Positions 9,279-49,751 of a stretch of DNA of 64,000 bases are shown one piece after another. The stretch is from positions 35,282-99,281 of the forward strand of contig CACZZB010000001.1 in NCBI GenBank assembly GCA_902785555.1, read 5' to 3'. Every line of letters begins with the position of its first letter. Position 1 is the first letter of the stretch. The notes beneath the pieces were generated by a model. It searched no databases. It was not told the origin of the DNA and saw only the letters and a program-made list of their open reading frames with translations. Position numbers and translations under genes: made by a program. Source of the DNA: an uncultured Ruminococcus sp. Its GTDB lineage: Bacteria; Bacillota; Clostridia; Oscillospirales; Acutalibacteraceae.

Positions 9279-9351
9279 GCTGATATAGCTCAGTTGGTAG
9301 AGCAGCTCATTCGTAATGAGCAGGTCGTGGGTTCGAGTCCCACTATCAGCT
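9279..9351 (+). tRNA. tRNA-Thr (anticodon CGT)
   Basis: Hand-folded cloverleaf. Acceptor gctgata/tatcagc, D stem gctc/gagc, anticodon stem gctca/tgagc with loop ttCGTaa, T stem gtggg/cccac with ttcgagt loop. 73 nt; CCA is not encoded. Confidence 0.93.
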
Positions 9352-45983: not shown

Positions 45984-47501
45984 TCAGCACAGCGGAGCAA
46001 ATATTCTTAAAATACCGTCAATATACCATCTGAAATCTCCTGTCTTGAGGTCACTCAATGTTCGGAGAGTCGCTTTTGACTGTGTTTTAAGAAAATCTTC
46101 CTCAAAATCCTTTATCATCTCCGATTTATAGAATACCGAGTTATTTTCAAAATGCAGGAAAAGGCTTCTGTAATCAAGATTGACTGTTCCGACAGTCGCT
46201 ATATTCCCGTCAATTATACAGCCCTTTGCATGGACAAATCCCGGAGTATATTCGTAAATCTTCACTCCTGCATCCATAAGAGTTTTATAATACCCTCTCG
46301 ACATCCTGTAAACTAACTTCTTATCGGGTATGCCCGGCATTATTATCCTTACATCCACTCCTCTTTCAGCGGCTTTTACAAACGCTTCGAGAAGATATTC
46401 GCCAAGCATCAGGTACGGTGTATAGAACCACGCTGTTTTCTTTGAATGATACAAAAGGTCAACATACAAATCATTGCTATATGTTTCAAATCTTACGGGA
46501 GAATCATAATATGACAATACATAACCGTCATCCGACTGTGTAGTATTTTTCGGGAAAGGCGGAAAATATTTCGACAGTTCAAGAGGTTCTTTTGAAAAAG
46601 CGTTCCAGAACTCAACAAACATACGTGCATATACCTGTGCCGCAGCACCTTTGACGTAAAATCCTATATCTTTCCAGTGACCGTACTTTTTCTTTTTATT
46701 GATATACTCGTCAGCTAAATTTACTCCTCCGCTGAAAGCTATCTCACCGTCAATGATAAGCATTTTTCTGTGGTCACGGTAATTGAGCGTACCGCTGAGA
46801 AATTTTATGGGATTGAAGCTGACACACTTAATGCCCTTGCTTTTGAGGTCTTTTACGTTTCGCCTTGAATATGTAGAGATACTTCCCACGTCATCATACA
46901 TGAAATATACCTCGACACCCTCTTTTACCTTCTGTTCCATGATATTTACCATTGAATCCCACATGATACCGTTTTCAACAATGAAATATTCCGCAAAAAT
47001 GAATTTCTTGGCTTTTTTGAGTTCTTCGAGCATACATTTGTGCATTTCCTCGCCCAATGCAAAATACCTTGCATTCTCATTCCTCACAACAGGAAAATCC
47101 GTTTCCCTCTGAGTTCTTGCAAGCACCGTTGCAAGATGAGGATTTTCTTCGGATATCTTATTTATAAGCTCATCATTGCAGACCTCGGAATATACTTTTA
47201 TTTCACCCTCTGATGAATCCAGCTTTTTTCTGATAGGCTTTGCACTTTTCTGATTTCCGTAACACCAATATAAAAAAGTTCCCGGAAGCGGAAAGGCAAG
47301 TATCAGAATAAGCCACAGTATCTTATAACTGCCCTCATCCTTTTTTGTAACGATATAAAGGACATAGTTAAATGAAGCTATAGCAACTATCATATCAACA
47401 ATCTCCGTCAAGCCATCCGCCAGCCATACGAGAAATGACATCCATGCAATCTGGATAAGTATTGCAGGGAGAACTATCAATATTCTTGCAAGCAGTTTCA
47501 A
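45984..47501 (-). CDS. cls: cardiolipin synthase
   Basis: Two N-terminal TM segments and two PLD HKD motifs (HRKMLIIDG.., HAKGCIIDG..). TTG start. Own TGGACA-17-TATAAT-like promoter at ~47527-47555. Confidence 0.9.
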   Translation of the reverse strand: MKLLARILIVLPAILIQIAWMSFLVWLADGLTEIVDMIVAIASFNYVLYIVTKKDEGSYKILWLILILAFPLPGTFLYWCYGNQKSAKPIRKKLDSSEGEIKVYSEVCNDELINKISEENPHLATVLARTQRETDFPVVRNENARYFALGEEMHKCMLEELKKAKKFIFAEYFIVENGIMWDSMVNIMEQKVKEGVEVYFMYDDVGSISTYSRRNVKDLKSKGIKCVSFNPIKFLSGTLNYRDHRKMLIIDGEIAFSGGVNLADEYINKKKKYGHWKDIGFYVKGAAAQVYARMFVEFWNAFSKEPLELSKYFPPFPKNTTQSDDGYVLSYYDSPVRFETYSNDLYVDLLYHSKKTAWFYTPYLMLGEYLLEAFVKAAERGVDVRIIMPGIPDKKLVYRMSRGYYKTLMDAGVKIYEYTPGFVHAKGCIIDGNIATVGTVNLDYRSLFLHFENNSVFYKSEMIKDFEEDFLKTQSKATLRTLSDLKTGDFRWYIDGILRIFAPLC

Positions 47502-47589
47502 TTTTTATCGCACTCCTTTTTTTGATTTTATAAAATTATATCACACCATGACTCTATTGTCCATAATTTTTTCCGAATGGCAAAAAGTA

Positions 47590-47626
47590 AAACAGCTCCG
47601 ACAATTCAAAACTGTCGAAGCTGTTT
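47590..47626 (-). terminator. intrinsic terminator of the ~850 nt unit (minus-strand specific)
   Basis: 14-bp stem aaacagcuucgaca/ugucggagcuguuu. On the minus-strand RNA the only non-Watson-Crick pair is G-U; on the plus strand it would be a C-A mismatch. UACUUUUU follows on the minus strand only. Confidence 0.75.
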
Positions 47627-48219
47627 CCTTTAAAACAATGGAGGTACAAAAATCAAACTACCATCGGACTCATTCCATTTCAAAATAATAATCAAAGTCG
47701 TAAAGGTATGCAACCGCAAACCGAAAAGACAACCATAAATTACATTGGACTCAATCCTATCTATGTAAATTTTATATACAAAACCGCCTTCGGTTTTATT
47801 CCAATCCGTAACCGAAATTACATTCGGTGAACGATATAACCACCGCACACCCTCGAAATAAATATCCTTAATGCTTTACTCTCCAAAACCACCCCACTGG
47901 CAGTCACACACTGTAAAGAAAGATTATCAATAACAATGCGGAGCTTTCGGCAACAGACGGAGGAAATTTTCCGTTCAATTCATTTGCAAGACACTATTCC
48001 CGAACAATGGCTTCAAGCAATCCCCGTGTGTCATAACGGTTAGTCCGAACAGGAGAAAACACTCCATACGAACAACATATTCAATTGTCAAAGTCCCAAA
48101 ACAAGCGGAGTCAAACGACAACCTTGCACAATTCAAAGACTTTTCCGAACTCACAACCTAAATACCGTTGAAACAAGAGCCATTATCCGCAATTCACGGA
48201 TACCAATATGCCCAAAAAC

Positions 48220-48309
48220 TCAACCTCGTTCATACTCTATCTTATCCTCGTTGAAAGCCTCGCACCAAACGGTACGAGTTCCGCATATAACCGGTTCCAG
48301 TTCGCCCAT
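48220..48309 (-). CDS. possible 29-aa peptide MGELEPVICGTRTVWCEAFNEDKIEYERG near the 5' end of the long transcript
   Basis: ATG at 48309 preceded by AAAGGAGG with a 9 nt spacer. Below the 60-aa threshold of the ORF track. No other support. Confidence 0.3.
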   Translation of the reverse strand: MGELEPVICGTRTVWCEAFNEDKIEYERG

Positions 48310-48440
48310 TGGAGCTTGCCTCCTTTCATAAAACAGATAATTCAAGAAACCCCTTGCAGTCATAAAGGACTGTATCACGCTGACATATACACACTCCATA
48401 TATGTCCTTGCTCGCCGAACTCTTTATTTATCTTGATTAT

Positions 48441-48468
48441 ATTATACCACATCTTTATAAAATGTCAA
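48441..48468 (-). promoter_or_regulatory. strong sigma-A promoter with extended -10
   Basis: On the minus strand: TTGACA (48468-48463), 16 nt spacer, TGgTATAAT (48449-48441). Predicted start near 48434. Confidence 0.7.
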
Positions 48469-48524
48469 TAGTTTTTTTAAACTTTTTTTAAAATATATAT
48501 ATATTTAACAAATTATTTTTCCTA

Positions 48525-48553
48525 TTGACTTATCAATGATTTTATCGTAAAAT
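48525..48553 (+). promoter_or_regulatory. sigma-A promoter for the DUF1292 gene
   Basis: TTGACT (48525-48530), 17 nt spacer, TAAAAT (48548-48553). Confidence 0.6.
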
Positions 48554-48590
48554 AAGATTGTAATTTTATTTTAAGGAGATGTTCCATACT

Positions 48591-48920
48591 ATGAGCAAAC
48601 AGGAATTTGATAACGATATGTACGAAAGCAACCTCATTTCACTCCTTGATGACGAGGGAAACGAATATGAATTTGAAATTATTGAAGAACTTGACTATCA
48701 GGACAAGCATTATTATGCTCTTATGCCCTTGTTCGATATGCCCGATGAGGAAGATGAAAATTCCGAAAACGTATATATGATTTTCGAGGATATCATTGAC
48801 GAAAACGGTGAACCTCAGCTTGCCGAAATTGACGACGAAGTTCTTCTCGATACACTTGCCGAACTGTTTGAAAACAAATTCGACGAGGCTCTTTATGATG
48901 AAGACGAAGAAGATGAATAA
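48591..48920 (+). CDS. DUF1292-family acidic small protein
   Basis: 109 aa with ...LLDDEGNEYEFEIIEELDYQDKHYYALMP... typical of DUF1292. ATG at 48591 lies 12 nt after aaggag. The track start at 48579 overlaps the RBS. Confidence 0.75.
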   Translation: MSKQEFDNDMYESNLISLLDDEGNEYEFEIIEELDYQDKHYYALMPLFDMPDEEDENSENVYMIFEDIIDENGEPQLAEIDDEVLLDTLAELFENKFDEALYDEDEEDE

Positions 48921-48945
48921 TAATTAAAAAACATTAAATTTCCTC

Positions 48946-49023
48946 TTGATTTTTCCGAAAGTTTGTTATATAATATAGTCGTACAAAAAAGTATTTACTT
49001 TTTCGGATTTATTTGTTTATAAT
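48946..49023 (+). promoter_or_regulatory. two candidate sigma-A promoters upstream of the candidate sRNA
   Basis: TTGATT (48946-48951), 17 nt, TATAAT (48969-48974). Also TTACTT (48995-49000), 17 nt, TATAAT (49018-49023). Confidence 0.5.
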
Positions 49024-49025
49024 TT

Positions 49026-49215
49026 CTGCCCAATGCGTGTTAGTGTCTATATAACCCTACAAATTTTATTCAGGGAGCTTGGCTTCGGTGGCGGACTTCA
49101 GACCTCCCACTACATGGTGGACGAAGGGAGTATGAAATCATTGAGCGAGCACCCACCTGCTTATCTCGTAGGCAGGTTATTTGTGACACGAACGGTTGGG
49201 CGGATTTTTATTTTT
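49026..49215 (+). ncRNA. candidate ~175 nt rod-shaped small RNA, class not identified
   Basis: 5' and 3' ends pair over ~27 bp in four helical segments: 49026-49034 with 49195-49203, 49036-49038 with 49192-49194, 49043-49047 with 49185-49189, and 49051-49060 with 49168-49180. AUUUUUAUUUUU follows. No plausible ORF and no downstream same-strand gene. Confidence 0.45.
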
Positions 49216-49269
49216 GTTGAAAAATCAGGAGTCAGGAGTGAAAAAGTATTTTTTCGCTCCATACAAAAA

Positions 49270-49292
49270 GCAGCCGCTAAAAAAGCGACTGC
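49270..49292. terminator. probable bidirectional terminator
   Basis: gcagccgc and gcgactgc form a stem with one mismatch, flanked by A- and T-runs. Confidence 0.45.
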
Positions 49293-49298
49293 CGTTTT

Positions 49299-49751
49299 TT
49301 ATGCAAATATAAATACGAGAATTCCCACTGTCAGACCTACTGCAATCAATCCGAGACCGACAAAGAAAAATATCTTTTTCAGCAAATTTGCCGTATTATC
49401 ACCGTCTATGTAAAAACTGTCGGTTTTATCCGGAGCATATCTTATATGCACTGTCTGTCCCACTTTATATTTCGGCGGATTTGTCCCCACAGATGACTCT
49501 TTTACAATGTTCTCTCCGCCTGATACAGTGTAGCTTATCACAGGATACCAACTTCCCGAATGACCTTTCATTCCTGCCGAATGTCTTACAAGGTCTGTTA
49601 CCGTACCCACTGTCTTTGATGTGCAGCGTTTCTCCTTATTTGCACGAACAGATGATATTATTATCGACACCATCAGAAATACTATTCCCAAAAAACACCA
49701 TATTCCCGAAAATATCGCTATAAACATCATTTTCCATTCCATATTCAACAC
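49299..49751 (-). CDS. DUF3592-like membrane protein
   Basis: 150 aa. N-terminal TM, central ..G.V......S........YP...Y.V.G......S.......Y..G..V.I.Y.P.. and a C-terminal TM. Confidence 0.6.
   Translation of the reverse strand: MLNMEWKMMFIAIFSGIWCFLGIVFLMVSIIISSVRANKEKRCTSKTVGTVTDLVRHSAGMKGHSGSWYPVISYTVSGGENIVKESSVGTNPPKYKVGQTVHIRYAPDKTDSFYIDGDNTANLLKKIFFFVGLGLIAVGLTVGILVFIFA

What the first reader, a model, noticed from the sequence alone, without database searches (positions are those of the whole stretch)
47582..48468. ~850 nt promoter-to-terminator unit with no credible long ORF: candidate large structured ncRNA
Spacers in this window are mostly under 250 nt and very AT-rich. The cls to DUF1292 spacer, in contrast, is over 1 kb.

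Evidence for a discrete transcription unit on the minus strand:
- A near-consensus promoter, TTGACA-16 nt-TGgTATAAT (48468-48441).
- About 850 nt downstream, a 14-bp terminator hairpin (47590-47626) followed by UACUUUUU. Its single non-canonical pair is G-U on the minus-strand RNA but C-A on the plus strand, so the hairpin is strand-specific.

Evidence against protein coding and for RNA structure:
- All three minus-strand frames are broken by stops. The longest ORF is a 72-codon GTG ORF without an RBS.
- By eye the minus strand is G+U-rich and the plus strand C+A-rich, and the region is clearly less AT-rich than other spacers.
- Many local hairpins fold by hand: ACAUAUA..UAUAUGU 48383-48405, UAUCCG..CGGAUA 48184-48202, ACGGA..UCCGU 47957-47974, ACCGAA..UUCGGU 47811-47828, AAAACCG..CGGUUUU 47780-47797.
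- Short motifs recur. GUUCGG occurs 4 times (48420, 48150, 48050, 48005). AAUGUAAUUU occurs twice, and UGAGUCC(A/G)AUG occurs twice.

The size class matches the known giant bacterial ncRNAs (OLE, GOLLD, ROOL), some of which are common in rumen and gut Clostridia. I could not recognise any of their consensus sequences from memory, nor RNase P, tmRNA, SRP or group II intron signatures.
Basis: partly seen in the sequence, partly recalled or inferred. Interest (0 to 1): 0.85.

Follow-up and report, generated by a model that had tools for sequence, protein, structure and literature searches.

The report
New large structured RNA gene family
The long "empty" spacer holds a stand-alone gene for an ~850-nt, intricately folded RNA that matches no catalogued RNA family, recurs in at least 14 rumen and gut Clostridia next to the same neighbour gene, and carries a tiny conserved reading frame inside its fold.

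Summary
A 12/12 sigma-70 promoter with TG extension (48468..48441, minus strand) and an 18-bp terminator (47627..47589) bracket ~850 nt with no long ORF.

The region is not a neutral spacer. It is 84-87% identical in two sister species, whereas four-fold sites of the adjacent cls gene are only 54-64% identical.

I found 14 distinct homologues (about 50-90% identity among the twelve compared; one further member is far more divergent). Every one that includes upstream DNA lies divergently upstream of a DUF1292 gene; 6S RNA follows that gene in all seven loci scanned. Downstream genes differ.

Covariation supports more than 15 helices. On a MAFFT-only alignment, 92.5% of cells pair and 29 pairs change on both sides, against 14.9 in shuffles (0/500). 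G·U pairs fix the minus strand. No Rfam 15 family matches any member, ARAGORN finds nothing, and the literature searches found nothing.

Its 3' half is locked in conserved helices, and pN/pS of about 0.65 shows little selection on the peptide.

A mini-hairpin motif, GGA-NUGAN-UCC-N-AUG, recurs one to three times near the 3' end.

Verdict: a real, previously undescribed large structured RNA class. Function is unknown; it is probably an abundant scaffold or regulatory RNA that engages ribosomes.

The parts
48441..48489 (-). Promoter: A-tract (UP-like) 48489-48471, -35 TTGACA 48468-48463, extended -10 TGgTATAAT 48449-48441.
   Evidence: scores it 12/12 with a TG extension. A regular-expression scan found TTGACA-N16/17-TGnTATAAT in every member whose contig reaches that far. 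The very divergent L119 also has it.
48420..48436 (-). Predicted 5' end (TSS about 48434, inferred) and conserved leader UCAAGAUAAAUAAAGAG.
   Evidence: Conservation starts here in alignments A2-A4. The TSS is inferred from spacing to the -10 box, not measured.
48383..48405 (-). 5' hairpin ACAUAUA..UAUAUGU, in a variable region. Other members have a different hairpin or none here.
   Evidence: A4 columns 38-64.
48311..48323 (-). Invariant hairpin GGAG-GCAAG-CUCC, which contains the Shine-Dalgarno-like GGAGG.
   Evidence: pairs 135-138/144-147 are identical in 13/13 rows, so there is no covariation either way. Shortened to GGA-GGCAG-UCC in L119.
48220..48309 (-). Micro-ORF MGELEPVICGTRTVWCEAFNEDKIEYERG (29 codons plus stop). 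The AUG lies 9 nt after GGAGG.
   Evidence: Open for 23-31 codons in all 14 members. There are 0 stops in frame 0, against 9 and 21 in the other two frames. pN/pS is 0.26-1.46 and variability is flat across codon positions.
48259..48278 (-). Hairpin CUCGUACC-GUUU-GGUGCGAG inside the ORF. The Trp-Cys codons form its 3' arm.
   Evidence: helix 4. The third position of the Cys codon (C/U) covaries with column 189 (G/A). L119 rebuilds the hairpin with a different sequence.
48228..48256 (-). 5' strands of three stacked long-range helices, covering the 3' half of the ORF and its stop region. They pair with 48150-48122.
   Evidence: helices 5-7: 17 pairs, 96-98% paired, 9 pairs changed on both sides.
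48122..48150 (-). 3' strands of the long-range helices (GUUC...GUCUU...UUGUGCAAGG).
   Evidence: helices 5-7. Window coordinates.
48330..48333 (-). 5' strand of a long-range closing helix, pairing with 47802-47799. It encloses the ORF and the central domains.
   Evidence: helix 1: 88.5% paired, one covarying pair. Support is tentative.
48078..48086 (-). Invariant single-stranded block AAUUGAAUA.
   Evidence: Invariant in A4.
48039..48076 (-). Hairpin C (GUUCG...CGGAC with an inner GGAG/CUCC stem). It is present in every member with a different stem sequence.
   Evidence: segments folded one sequence at a time.
47864..48030 (-). Central domain, 8 modelled helices. They include ACGGGG 48027-48022 with CUCCGU 47962-47957, hairpin 48017-47999, a three-way junction closed by GCUC 47944-47941 with GAGU 47881-47878, a long hairpin 47940-47907, and hairpin 47904-47888.
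   Evidence: Covariance model R1 hits the 12 members it was built from at 44-148 bits (by construction) and, independently, L121 at 104 bits and L119 at 18 bits. It finds nothing in 722 kb of other loci. Covariation score is 0.426 against 0.258 in shuffles, 0/500.
47739..47876 (-). 3' domain. GCAUU 47874-47870 pairs with AAUGU 47824-47820, enclosing hairpin 47852-47826. Also hairpin AAACCG-AAGG-CGGUUU 47796-47781 and the first motif copy.
   Evidence: Model R2 hits all 13 members it was built from (by construction) but not L119. Covariation score is 0.298 against 0.216, 0/500, and the closing helix is 98% paired with 2 covarying pairs.
47740..47757 (-). Repeat motif copy 1: GGAUUGAGUCCAAUG followed at once by UAA (a start-stop). 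It forms the mini-hairpin GGAU-UGA-GUCC.
   Evidence: Present in all 14 members, and AUGUAA never varies.
47705..47722 (-). Hairpin GGUUUGC-GGUU-GCAUACC between the motif copies.
   Evidence: a hairpin sits at this position in all members, with different stems.
47653..47676 (-). Repeat motif copy 2: GGAAUGAGUCCGAUG-GUA-GUU-UGA. Several relatives carry a third copy from a ~52-nt duplication.
   Evidence: A search for the motif in the window (pattern entered as its plus-strand reverse complement) finds only these two copies.
47582..47627 (-). Intrinsic terminator: 18-bp stem followed by UACUUUUU.
   Evidence: Compensatory changes appear in L011, L012 and L097. Non-homologous terminators sit at the same place in L099, L107, L108, L111, L112 and L119.
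48579..48920 (+). Context: divergent DUF1292 gene, the only conserved neighbour.
   Evidence: Pfam PF06949. It is adjacent in every member that includes upstream DNA, including 5 found by DNA pattern alone.
49020..49210 (+). Context: 6S RNA directly after DUF1292.
   Evidence: RF00013, 61 bits. The same arrangement appears in 6 of 6 other loci scanned.

Best explanation
Window 48434..47582 (minus strand) is a stand-alone gene for a previously undescribed large structured RNA, ~850 nt here and ~930-1010 nt in relatives.

What the sequence comparisons show:
- A near-perfect sigma-70 promoter with a TG extension and an A-tract starts the unit, and an intrinsic terminator ends it.
- Purifying selection acts across the whole unit.
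- It has a multi-domain fold of more than 15 helices supported by covariation.
- Invariant single-stranded blocks include AAUUGAAUA, YUGAAC, GCAUUAAG and CCGAAUGUA.
- The 5' domain holds a GGAGG-N9-AUG micro-ORF of about 26 codons.
- A mini-hairpin motif (GGA-NUGAN-UCC-N-AUG) occurs 1-3 times near the 3' end.
- It always sits divergently next to a DUF1292 gene, which 6S RNA follows in every locus scanned.

What I infer:
- It is an abundant, stable RNA that acts as RNA, either as a protein-binding scaffold or as a regulator. It is not primarily a messenger.
- Its 5' module engages ribosomes.
- Codons ~13-26 of the micro-ORF form one hairpin and the 5' strands of three long-range helices that organise the 5' domain. 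A ribosome reading the ORF must therefore melt that core. Translation and the folded state would then be mutually exclusive, giving a translation-gated switch.
- The 3' repeats look like miniature translation-initiation sites (AGGA-N9-AUG). They are the most likely docking sites for a protein or for 30S subunits.
For: Discrete unit:
- Promoter and terminator are present. Both are conserved or replaced at the same position in all members.
- Sequence conservation begins at the promoter and stops at the terminator.

Selection:
- The unit is 84-87% identical to L012 and L011, whereas four-fold sites of cls are 64% and 54% identical.

Family:
- There are 14 distinct members.

Structure:
- On the unfitted MAFFT alignment A4, 92.5% of cells pair against 86.6% in shuffles. 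29 pairs change on both sides against 14.9. No shuffle of 500 reaches the observed value. Slid controls score 0.06-0.10 against 0.326.
- The central-domain model gives a covariation score of 0.426 against 0.258, and the 3'-domain model 0.298 against 0.216.
- Segments folded one sequence at a time give the same architecture with different sequences.

Strand:
- 143 of 850 paired cells are G·U. The opposite strand would pair only 77.8% of cells, against 92.2%.

Not a known family:
-.

Not a leader:
- The downstream gene differs between members. It is cls here, an LRR protein in L012, enolase in L097, Ldh in L121, a tRNA synthetase on the opposite strand in L107, and NUDIX in L108.

Micro-ORF:
- It is open in all 14 members, including L119, where little else aligns.
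- The ORF's 3' half lies in helices with compensatory changes (helices 4-7).
Against: - No expression data were examined. The transcript, its ends and its abundance are inferred from sequence signals.
- Translation of the micro-ORF is unproven. pN/pS is 0.26-1.46, variability by codon position is flat (20/20/26), and two members (L108, L112) are frameshifted in the C-terminal half. The open frame could therefore be a by-product of RNA-level constraint.
- The Shine-Dalgarno sequence and the AUG each sit in small invariant stems, which neither support nor exclude ribosome access.
- The RNA is missing from the DUF1292 locus of some close relatives, where an ECF-transporter gene takes its place. 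It is therefore not universally required.
- No partner protein or target was identified. DUF1292 is extremely acidic and is unlikely to bind RNA directly.
- All hosts are uncultured MAGs or metagenome contigs.
Confidence: 0.6

Rival explanations
1. It is an ordinary mRNA for a micropeptide of about 26 aa. The ~600 nt downstream is a structured 3' UTR that only stabilises the message.
For: - The Shine-Dalgarno sequence is strong and correctly spaced, and the AUG never varies.
- The ORF is open in all 14 members, and most indels are multiples of three.
- The N-terminal MG[ED]xEPV and Trp16 are kept even in L119.
Against: - pN/pS is about 0.65 and there is no third-position excess. Two members are frameshifted.
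- Synonymous positions (GGC, GAA) never vary, while the Cys third position covaries with an RNA partner.
- The 3' 600 nt are as conserved as the ORF. They contain invariant loops and junctions and more than 10 covarying helices. That is far more than stabilisation needs.
Confidence: 0.15
2. It is a decoy or sponge. The repeated mini-hairpins mimic a translation-initiation region (AGGA-N9-AUG) and titrate a translational repressor (CsrA-like or other) or a small RNA.
For: - The motif is repeated 1-3 times and is the most invariant element of the 3' part.
- Its sequence A(A/U)GGA(A/U)UG resembles the CsrA consensus ARGGAUG (my own knowledge).
- Copy number changes by duplication.
Against: - There are only 1-3 copies, whereas known sponges carry 7-22.
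- GGA is predicted to lie in the stem, not the loop (helix 12).
- The sponge idea does not explain the large conserved fold upstream.
- No matching target site was seen in the 64-kb window.
Confidence: 0.1
3. It is an RNA-only assembly or a ribozyme, in the manner of ROOL and GOLLD (multimeric cages) or of RNase P and introns.
For: - Its size, ornate fold and invariant single-stranded blocks resemble those classes.
- It comes from the same habitat as ROOL. The cage structures are described in PMC12286853, listed.
Against: - No Rfam model matches.
- It lies in a stable chromosomal, housekeeping context. It is not near phage or tRNA islands, and two viral-contig scans found nothing.
- No catalytic-core signature was recognised.
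Confidence: 0.08
4. It is a cis-acting leader or attenuator of the downstream gene (cls), or a decayed protein gene.
For: It lies upstream of cls in the same orientation, and it contains a short ORF followed by a terminator.
Against: - The downstream gene differs in almost every member.
- cls has its own 11/12 promoter after the terminator.
- The translated frames match no Pfam family.
- Covariation and G·U asymmetry indicate selection at the RNA level.
Confidence: 0.02

Closest known systems
OLE RNA and raiA-motif RNA (orphan, chromosomally encoded, structured RNAs of Bacillota)
   Same: - Stand-alone gene in Gram-positive anaerobes.
- Many covarying helices interspersed with invariant nucleotides.
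- Housekeeping-type genomic context, lineage-restricted, function not obvious from context.
   Different: - No sequence or structure match to RF01071 or RF03072.
- Larger: ~850-1000 nt, against ~600 and ~200.
- Carries a Shine-Dalgarno sequence, an AUG and a micro-ORF inside its core.
- Its neighbour is DUF1292 with 6S RNA, not oapA or raiA.
- Much narrower distribution so far.
ROOL and GOLLD RNAs
   Same: Same size class and rumen or gut origin, and an ornate multi-domain fold.
   Different: - No covariance-model match.
- Not associated with phage, prophage or tRNA clusters, with 0 hits in viral contigs.
- Syntenic in a core-gene neighbourhood.
Dual-function RNAs such as Staphylococcus RNAIII (hld, 26 aa) and Bacillus SR1 (SR1P)
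   Same: - A discrete transcript with its own promoter and terminator.
- A micro-ORF of about 26 codons embedded in a multi-hairpin RNA with long-range helices.
- Repeated conserved hairpins in the 3' domain.
   Different: - No homology, and roughly twice the size.
- The peptide shows little selection.
- The repeated hairpins resemble initiation sites rather than anti-Shine-Dalgarno (C-rich) seeds.
- The promoter looks constitutive, not quorum-regulated.
- Neither translation nor targets have been shown.
tmRNA
   Same: A stable RNA that combines structured domains with a short reading frame and engages ribosomes.
   Different: - ARAGORN and Rfam find no tmRNA.
- There is no tRNA-like domain and no CCA end.
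- The ORF has its own Shine-Dalgarno sequence and AUG.

Membership tests
OLE / GOLLD / ROOL / HEARO / raiA (Rfam RF01071, RF01998, RF03087, RF02033, RF03072) | Match to the family covariance model at or near its gathering score. | tested here: not met
   - cmscan against all 4227 Rfam 15 families found only a tRNA and 6S in the window.
- At E<=10, region 47400-48650 gives nothing but miRNA and sRNA noise at 14-17 bits.
- Six other members give none at E<=1.
tmRNA | A tRNA-like domain plus a tag reading frame, as recognised by ARAGORN or RF00023. | tested here: not met
   ARAGORN finds 0 genes in 47400-49300. There is no Rfam hit.
cis-regulatory leader (riboswitch, T-box, attenuator) | The same regulated gene lies downstream, in the same orientation, in all homologues. 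| tested here: not met
   - The downstream gene is cls, an LRR protein, enolase, Ldh, NUDIX or a tRNA synthetase, depending on the member.
- cls has its own promoter after the terminator.
Large structured stand-alone ncRNA (generic kind) | Purifying selection on an intergenic unit bounded by a promoter and a terminator. | tested here: met
   The unit is 84-87% identical where neutral sites are 54-64% identical. Promoter and terminator are present in all members.
Large structured stand-alone ncRNA (generic kind) | Multiple helices supported by compensatory changes, above shuffled and slid controls. | tested here: met
   No shuffle of 500 reaches the observed covariation score in any of the three tests, and slid controls are 2-5 times lower.
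Large structured stand-alone ncRNA (generic kind) | A discrete transcript of the predicted size exists in cells. | not testable with these tools
Dual-function (coding plus regulatory) RNA, RNAIII/SR1 type | The embedded small ORF is translated. | tested here: inconclusive
   - For: the ORF is open in 14 of 14 members, Shine-Dalgarno sequence and AUG never vary, and there are 0 stops in frame against 9 and 21 in the other frames.
- Against: pN/pS is 0.26-1.46, variability by codon position is flat, and 2 members are frameshifted.
Dual-function (coding plus regulatory) RNA, RNAIII/SR1 type | An RNA domain that base-pairs with target mRNAs. | not testable with these tools
   Only 64 kb of the genome is available. 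A search for the repeat motif in the window (pattern entered as its plus-strand reverse complement) finds only the motif's own two copies.
Type I toxin-antitoxin (hok/sok-like structured mRNA) | A small hydrophobic membrane toxin peptide. | tested here: not met
   The peptides are acidic and hydrophilic, for example MGELEPVICGTRTVWCEAFNEDKIEYERG.
CsrB/RsmZ-type protein sponge | Many (7 or more) GGA motifs displayed in hairpin loops. | tested here: not met
   There are only 1-3 motif copies. GGA is predicted to lie in the stem of the mini-hairpin (helix 12).

The most novel reading that the evidence does not exclude
This is a new class of ornate bacterial RNA whose structural core is built partly from the codons of a micro-ORF that ribosomes actually read. 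It would be a translation-gated RNA machine or regulator. It is genetically tied to the DUF1292 / 6S RNA locus, and its 3' repeats mimic initiation sites to dock 30S subunits or a translational regulator.
Probability: 0.25. Interest if true: 0.9.

Novelty: categorically new. Interest (0 to 1): 0.8.

Why it matters
Bacterial RNAs of this size and structural complexity are rare. The short list is rRNA, RNase P, group I and II introns, tmRNA, OLE, GOLLD, ROOL and HEARO, and each has revealed new biochemistry or new assemblies.

This family is comparable in size and adds something those lack. A ribosome-binding site and a conserved open frame are woven into the helices that organise the fold. If the frame is read, it would be a natural case in which translation and RNA tertiary structure exclude each other within a non-messenger RNA.

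The finding also flags a conserved three-gene neighbourhood: new RNA, DUF1292, 6S RNA. That gives DUF1292, a widespread protein of unknown function, a testable context.

In practical terms, public annotations call a spurious 59-aa protein here. The two covariance models built here (central and 3' domains) can be used to annotate the RNA in rumen and gut genomes.

Tried and rejected
- Known RNA families: Rfam at gathering score and at permissive E-values, on the window and on six relatives, and ARAGORN. Nothing matched.
- Decayed gene: Pfam on the longest ORFs of both strands and NCBIfam on the peptide gave no hits.
- cls as an anchor for homologues. Only the two closest species keep the RNA next to cls. 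In relatives with 75-80% cls identity, other genes lie upstream of cls (checked for L013) and no match to the RNA is found. DUF1292 turned out to be the right anchor.
- RNAalifold on raw MAFFT sub-alignments recovered few pairs, because variable hairpins are misaligned and L117 disrupts the alignment. I replaced this with folding each sequence on its own and with alignments fitted to covariance models.
- tRNA T-arm or T-loop reading of the repeat motif. Rejected by inspection: positions 54 and 56 do not fit and the loop has 5 nt.
- Whole-length RNAduplex between the new RNA and the neighbouring 6S RNA gave meaningless end-to-end duplexes and was dropped.
- Scan for pseudoknots and extra long-range helices on A4. 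It recovered the known helices plus G·U-rich candidates that are probably spurious.
- Phage association: two viral-contig scans gave 0 hits.
- Literature: DUF1292, large ncRNA classes, rumen structured RNAs and the motif strings themselves. No description was found.
- PDB sequence search for DUF1292 gave nothing informative.
Full report
OBSERVATION

The cls gene (45984..47501, minus strand) and the DUF1292 gene (48579..48920, plus strand) are 1077 nt apart.

- On the minus strand, the promoter scan ranks TTGACA-16-TATAAT at 48468..48441 first. It scores 12/12 and has a TG extension.
- The terminator scan ranks the 18-bp hairpin at 47627..47589 first.
- A second good promoter, 47563..47535 (11/12, with TG), follows the terminator and serves cls.
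- The plus strand is C- and A-rich across the region, so the minus-strand RNA is G- and U-rich.
- No ORF longer than 72 codons exists on the minus strand.

At 48309..48220 there is a 29-codon ORF whose AUG lies 9 nt after a perfect GGAGG.

NOT A KNOWN RNA AND NOT A DECAYED GENE

- cmscan of the whole window against Rfam 15 finds only a tRNA (9279..9351) and 6S RNA (49020..49210, plus strand).
- A permissive scan of 47400-48650 returns only noise at 14-17 bits.
- Six relatives scanned later also give no hit inside the element.
- ARAGORN finds no tRNA or tmRNA.
- The longest ORFs on both strands match no Pfam family.

SELECTION

- Ten contigs from the same species are 99.4-100% identical.
- In two sister species, whose cls protein is 92% identical, the element is 87% (L011) and 84% (L012) identical.
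- Four-fold degenerate sites of cls are only 54% and 64% identical in those species.
- The whole ~850 nt is therefore about as constrained as coding DNA.
- In L012, a 745-aa BspA-type LRR protein gene lies between the element and cls. The element is therefore not tied to cls.
- Relatives with 75-80% cls identity show no match to the element. In L013, the one inspected, other genes lie upstream of cls.

THE FAMILY

I used DUF1292 homologues as anchors and fetched their contigs.

- Homologues turned up beside DUF1292 proteins that are 75-77% identical (L097/98, L099-101).
- Further ones lie beside proteins that are 67-69% identical (L107, L108).
- Others lie beside proteins that are 63-65% identical (L121/122, and the very divergent L119/120).
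- A scan of JGI metagenomes with the invariant 22-mer GGAGGCNAGCTCCNATGGGCGA gave nine loci. Seven are true members: L110-L112 and L114-L117. Two are high-GC chance hits.
- In total there are 14 distinct sequences. Pairwise identity among the 12 distinct sequences compared is about 50-90%.
- Every member that includes upstream DNA has DUF1292 divergently upstream. This includes the five found by DNA pattern alone, which were not selected for that neighbour.
- 6S RNA follows DUF1292 in the window and in 6 of 6 other loci scanned.
- The downstream neighbour varies: cls, an LRR protein, enolase, Ldh, NUDIX, or a tRNA synthetase.
- Four DUF1292 clusters that are 75-85% identical to the window's protein lack the element. 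There, an ECF-transporter gene sits 67 nt upstream of DUF1292.
- Model R1 finds nothing in 92 other loci totalling 722 kb.
- Two viral-contig scans gave no hits.

STRUCTURE

1. MAFFT-only 13-row alignment (A4), with the RNAalifold consensus of 71 pairs in 12 helices.
- 92.5% of cells pair, against 86.6% in shuffles.
- 29 pairs change on both sides, against 14.9.
- The covariation score is 0.326, against 0.220. No shuffle of 500 reaches the observed value.
- Sliding the 3' partners by 1-3 columns gives scores of 0.06-0.10.

2. Central domain (window 48030..47864).
- A covariance model (R1) recovers the 12 members it was built from at 44-148 bits, as expected by construction. Later it also recovers L121 at 104 bits and L119 at 18 bits.
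- On the fitted alignment, 30 of 48 pairs change on both sides, against 19.2 in shuffles.
- The score is 0.426 against 0.258, with 0/500 shuffles reaching it. Slid controls score 0.08-0.14.

3. 3' domain (47876..47739).
- Model R2 recovers all 13 members it was built from (by construction) but not L119. The score is 0.298 against 0.216, 0/500.
- Two of its six helices are poorly modelled.

4. Other evidence.
- Folding each segment of each member on its own gives the same architecture with quite different stem sequences. One example is GACUGCC/GGUGGUU, against GAUCAGC/GCUGAUC, against GCCGGA/UCCGGU.
- The window's clade lacks one stem-loop (A4 columns ~404-465) that all other members have.
- 143 of 850 paired cells are G·U. 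The opposite strand would pair only 77.8% of cells, against 92.2%. The minus-strand RNA is therefore the selected molecule.
- Intrinsic terminators occur at the same place in all members for which the 3' end is present, even where they are not homologous.

THE MICRO-ORF

All 14 members have GGAGG, about 9 nt, then AUG GGC GA(A/U), followed by an open frame of 23-31 codons. Ten of the fourteen have exactly 26.

For translation:
- The first 23 codons of frame 0 contain no stop in any of the 12 members tested. Frames 1 and 2 contain 9 and 21 stops.
- Indels in the variable middle are multiples of three in ten of twelve members.
- L119, which otherwise barely aligns, keeps a 26-codon frame: MGDSEPVSFTDLEPSWIKVSEIEIFE.

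Against selection on the peptide:
- pN/pS is 0.26-1.46.
- The number of extra states per codon position is 20/20/26.
- L108 and L112 are frameshifted in the C-terminal half.
- Synonymous positions of GGC and GAA never vary.
- The third position of the Cys codon covaries with an RNA partner (pair 189/203).

Codons ~13-26 form a hairpin (48278-48259) and the 5' strands of three stacked long-range helices (48256-48228 with 48150-48122). Those helices comprise 17 pairs, 9 with compensatory changes.

The frame is maintained, but the nucleotides are constrained mainly as RNA. Whether the ORF is translated remains open; I put it near 50%.

THE REPEAT

- GGA-NUGAN-UCC-N-AUG occurs 1-3 times near the 3' end.
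- The first copy is followed by UAA in every member, which makes a start-stop.
- Later copies open ORFs of 3-10 codons.
- A ~52-nt duplication gives a third copy in L011, L012, L116 and L097.
- With the purine before it, each copy reads like a small initiation site (AGGA-N9-AUG).
- A search for the motif in the 64-kb window (pattern entered as its plus-strand reverse complement) finds only the motif's own two copies.

INTERPRETATION

Shown:
- A discrete, conserved unit bounded by a promoter and a terminator.
- Strong selection at the RNA level.
- A multi-domain fold.
- No relation to any catalogued family.
- Fixed linkage to the DUF1292 gene, with 6S RNA following it wherever that was checked.

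Inferred:
- High, constitutive expression, from the consensus promoter with an A-tract.
- Action as a stable scaffold or regulatory RNA.
- Ribosome engagement at the 5' module, which would necessarily unfold the 5' domain.
- The repeats as docking sites.

Ordinary alternatives are addressed in the rivals section. They are a micropeptide mRNA with a decorative 3' UTR, a sponge, an RNA-only assembly or ribozyme, and a leader or pseudogene.

The literature searches found no prior description.

LIMITS

- There are no expression data.
- All hosts are uncultured.
- 14 sequences give good but not exhaustive covariation power.
- Two of the three covariation tests use alignments fitted to the model. 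The unfitted one gives the same answer.
- Distribution beyond the DUF1292 anchor and one exact-pattern scan is unknown.

Noticed in passing
window 49020-49210 (+); L097 4404-4594; L099 1782-1971; L107 4486-4675; L108 4398-4586; L112 4920-5110; L111 12237-12427: 6S RNA (RF00013) lies directly downstream of the DUF1292 gene in the window and in all six other loci scanned. DUF1292 and 6S appear to form a conserved pair, possibly co-transcribed.
   Followed up: partly
window 49033-49413 (+), and the called 126-aa gene at L001 4089-4469: Public gene calls place a 126-aa ORF with no Pfam match on top of the 6S RNA gene. It is probably a spurious protein call.
   Followed up: no
L001-L010, e.g. L001 5103-5282 (= window 48220-48399, minus strand): Gene callers annotate a 59-aa protein here. 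It is the 29-codon micro-ORF extended upstream to an earlier ATG. The extension is not conserved in relatives.
   Followed up: yes
L099 29-90 (-): A RAGATH-18 RNA (RF03064, 68 bits) lies just downstream of the new RNA in this member only.
   Followed up: no
L012 1595-3832 (+): A 745-aa BspA-type leucine-rich-repeat protein gene is inserted between the RNA and cls in one sister species.
   Followed up: partly
L091-L096, L102-L106 (e.g. L091 3296-3934): In four DUF1292 lineages that are 75-85% identical to the window's protein, an ECF-transporter S-component gene occupies the place of the RNA, 67 nt upstream of DUF1292. Whether the RNA was lost or moved elsewhere is unknown. L105 also carries an IS605 OrfB/TnpB gene nearby.
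   Followed up: partly
A4 columns ~404-465 (window near 48105): The window's clade (window, L011, L012, L116) lacks a covarying stem-loop of about 45-60 nt that every other member has. The window's RNA is therefore a reduced version of the family.
   Followed up: partly
L119 2030-2860 (-): In the most divergent member, a further ~800 nt without called genes follows the RNA's terminator. It includes another GGAGGCAGUC...GACUGCC hairpin with a U tract. Its nature is unknown.
   Followed up: no
window 47535-47563 (-): A strong separate promoter for cls (TGGACA-17-TATAAT, 11/12, with TG) lies immediately after the RNA's terminator.
   Followed up: no
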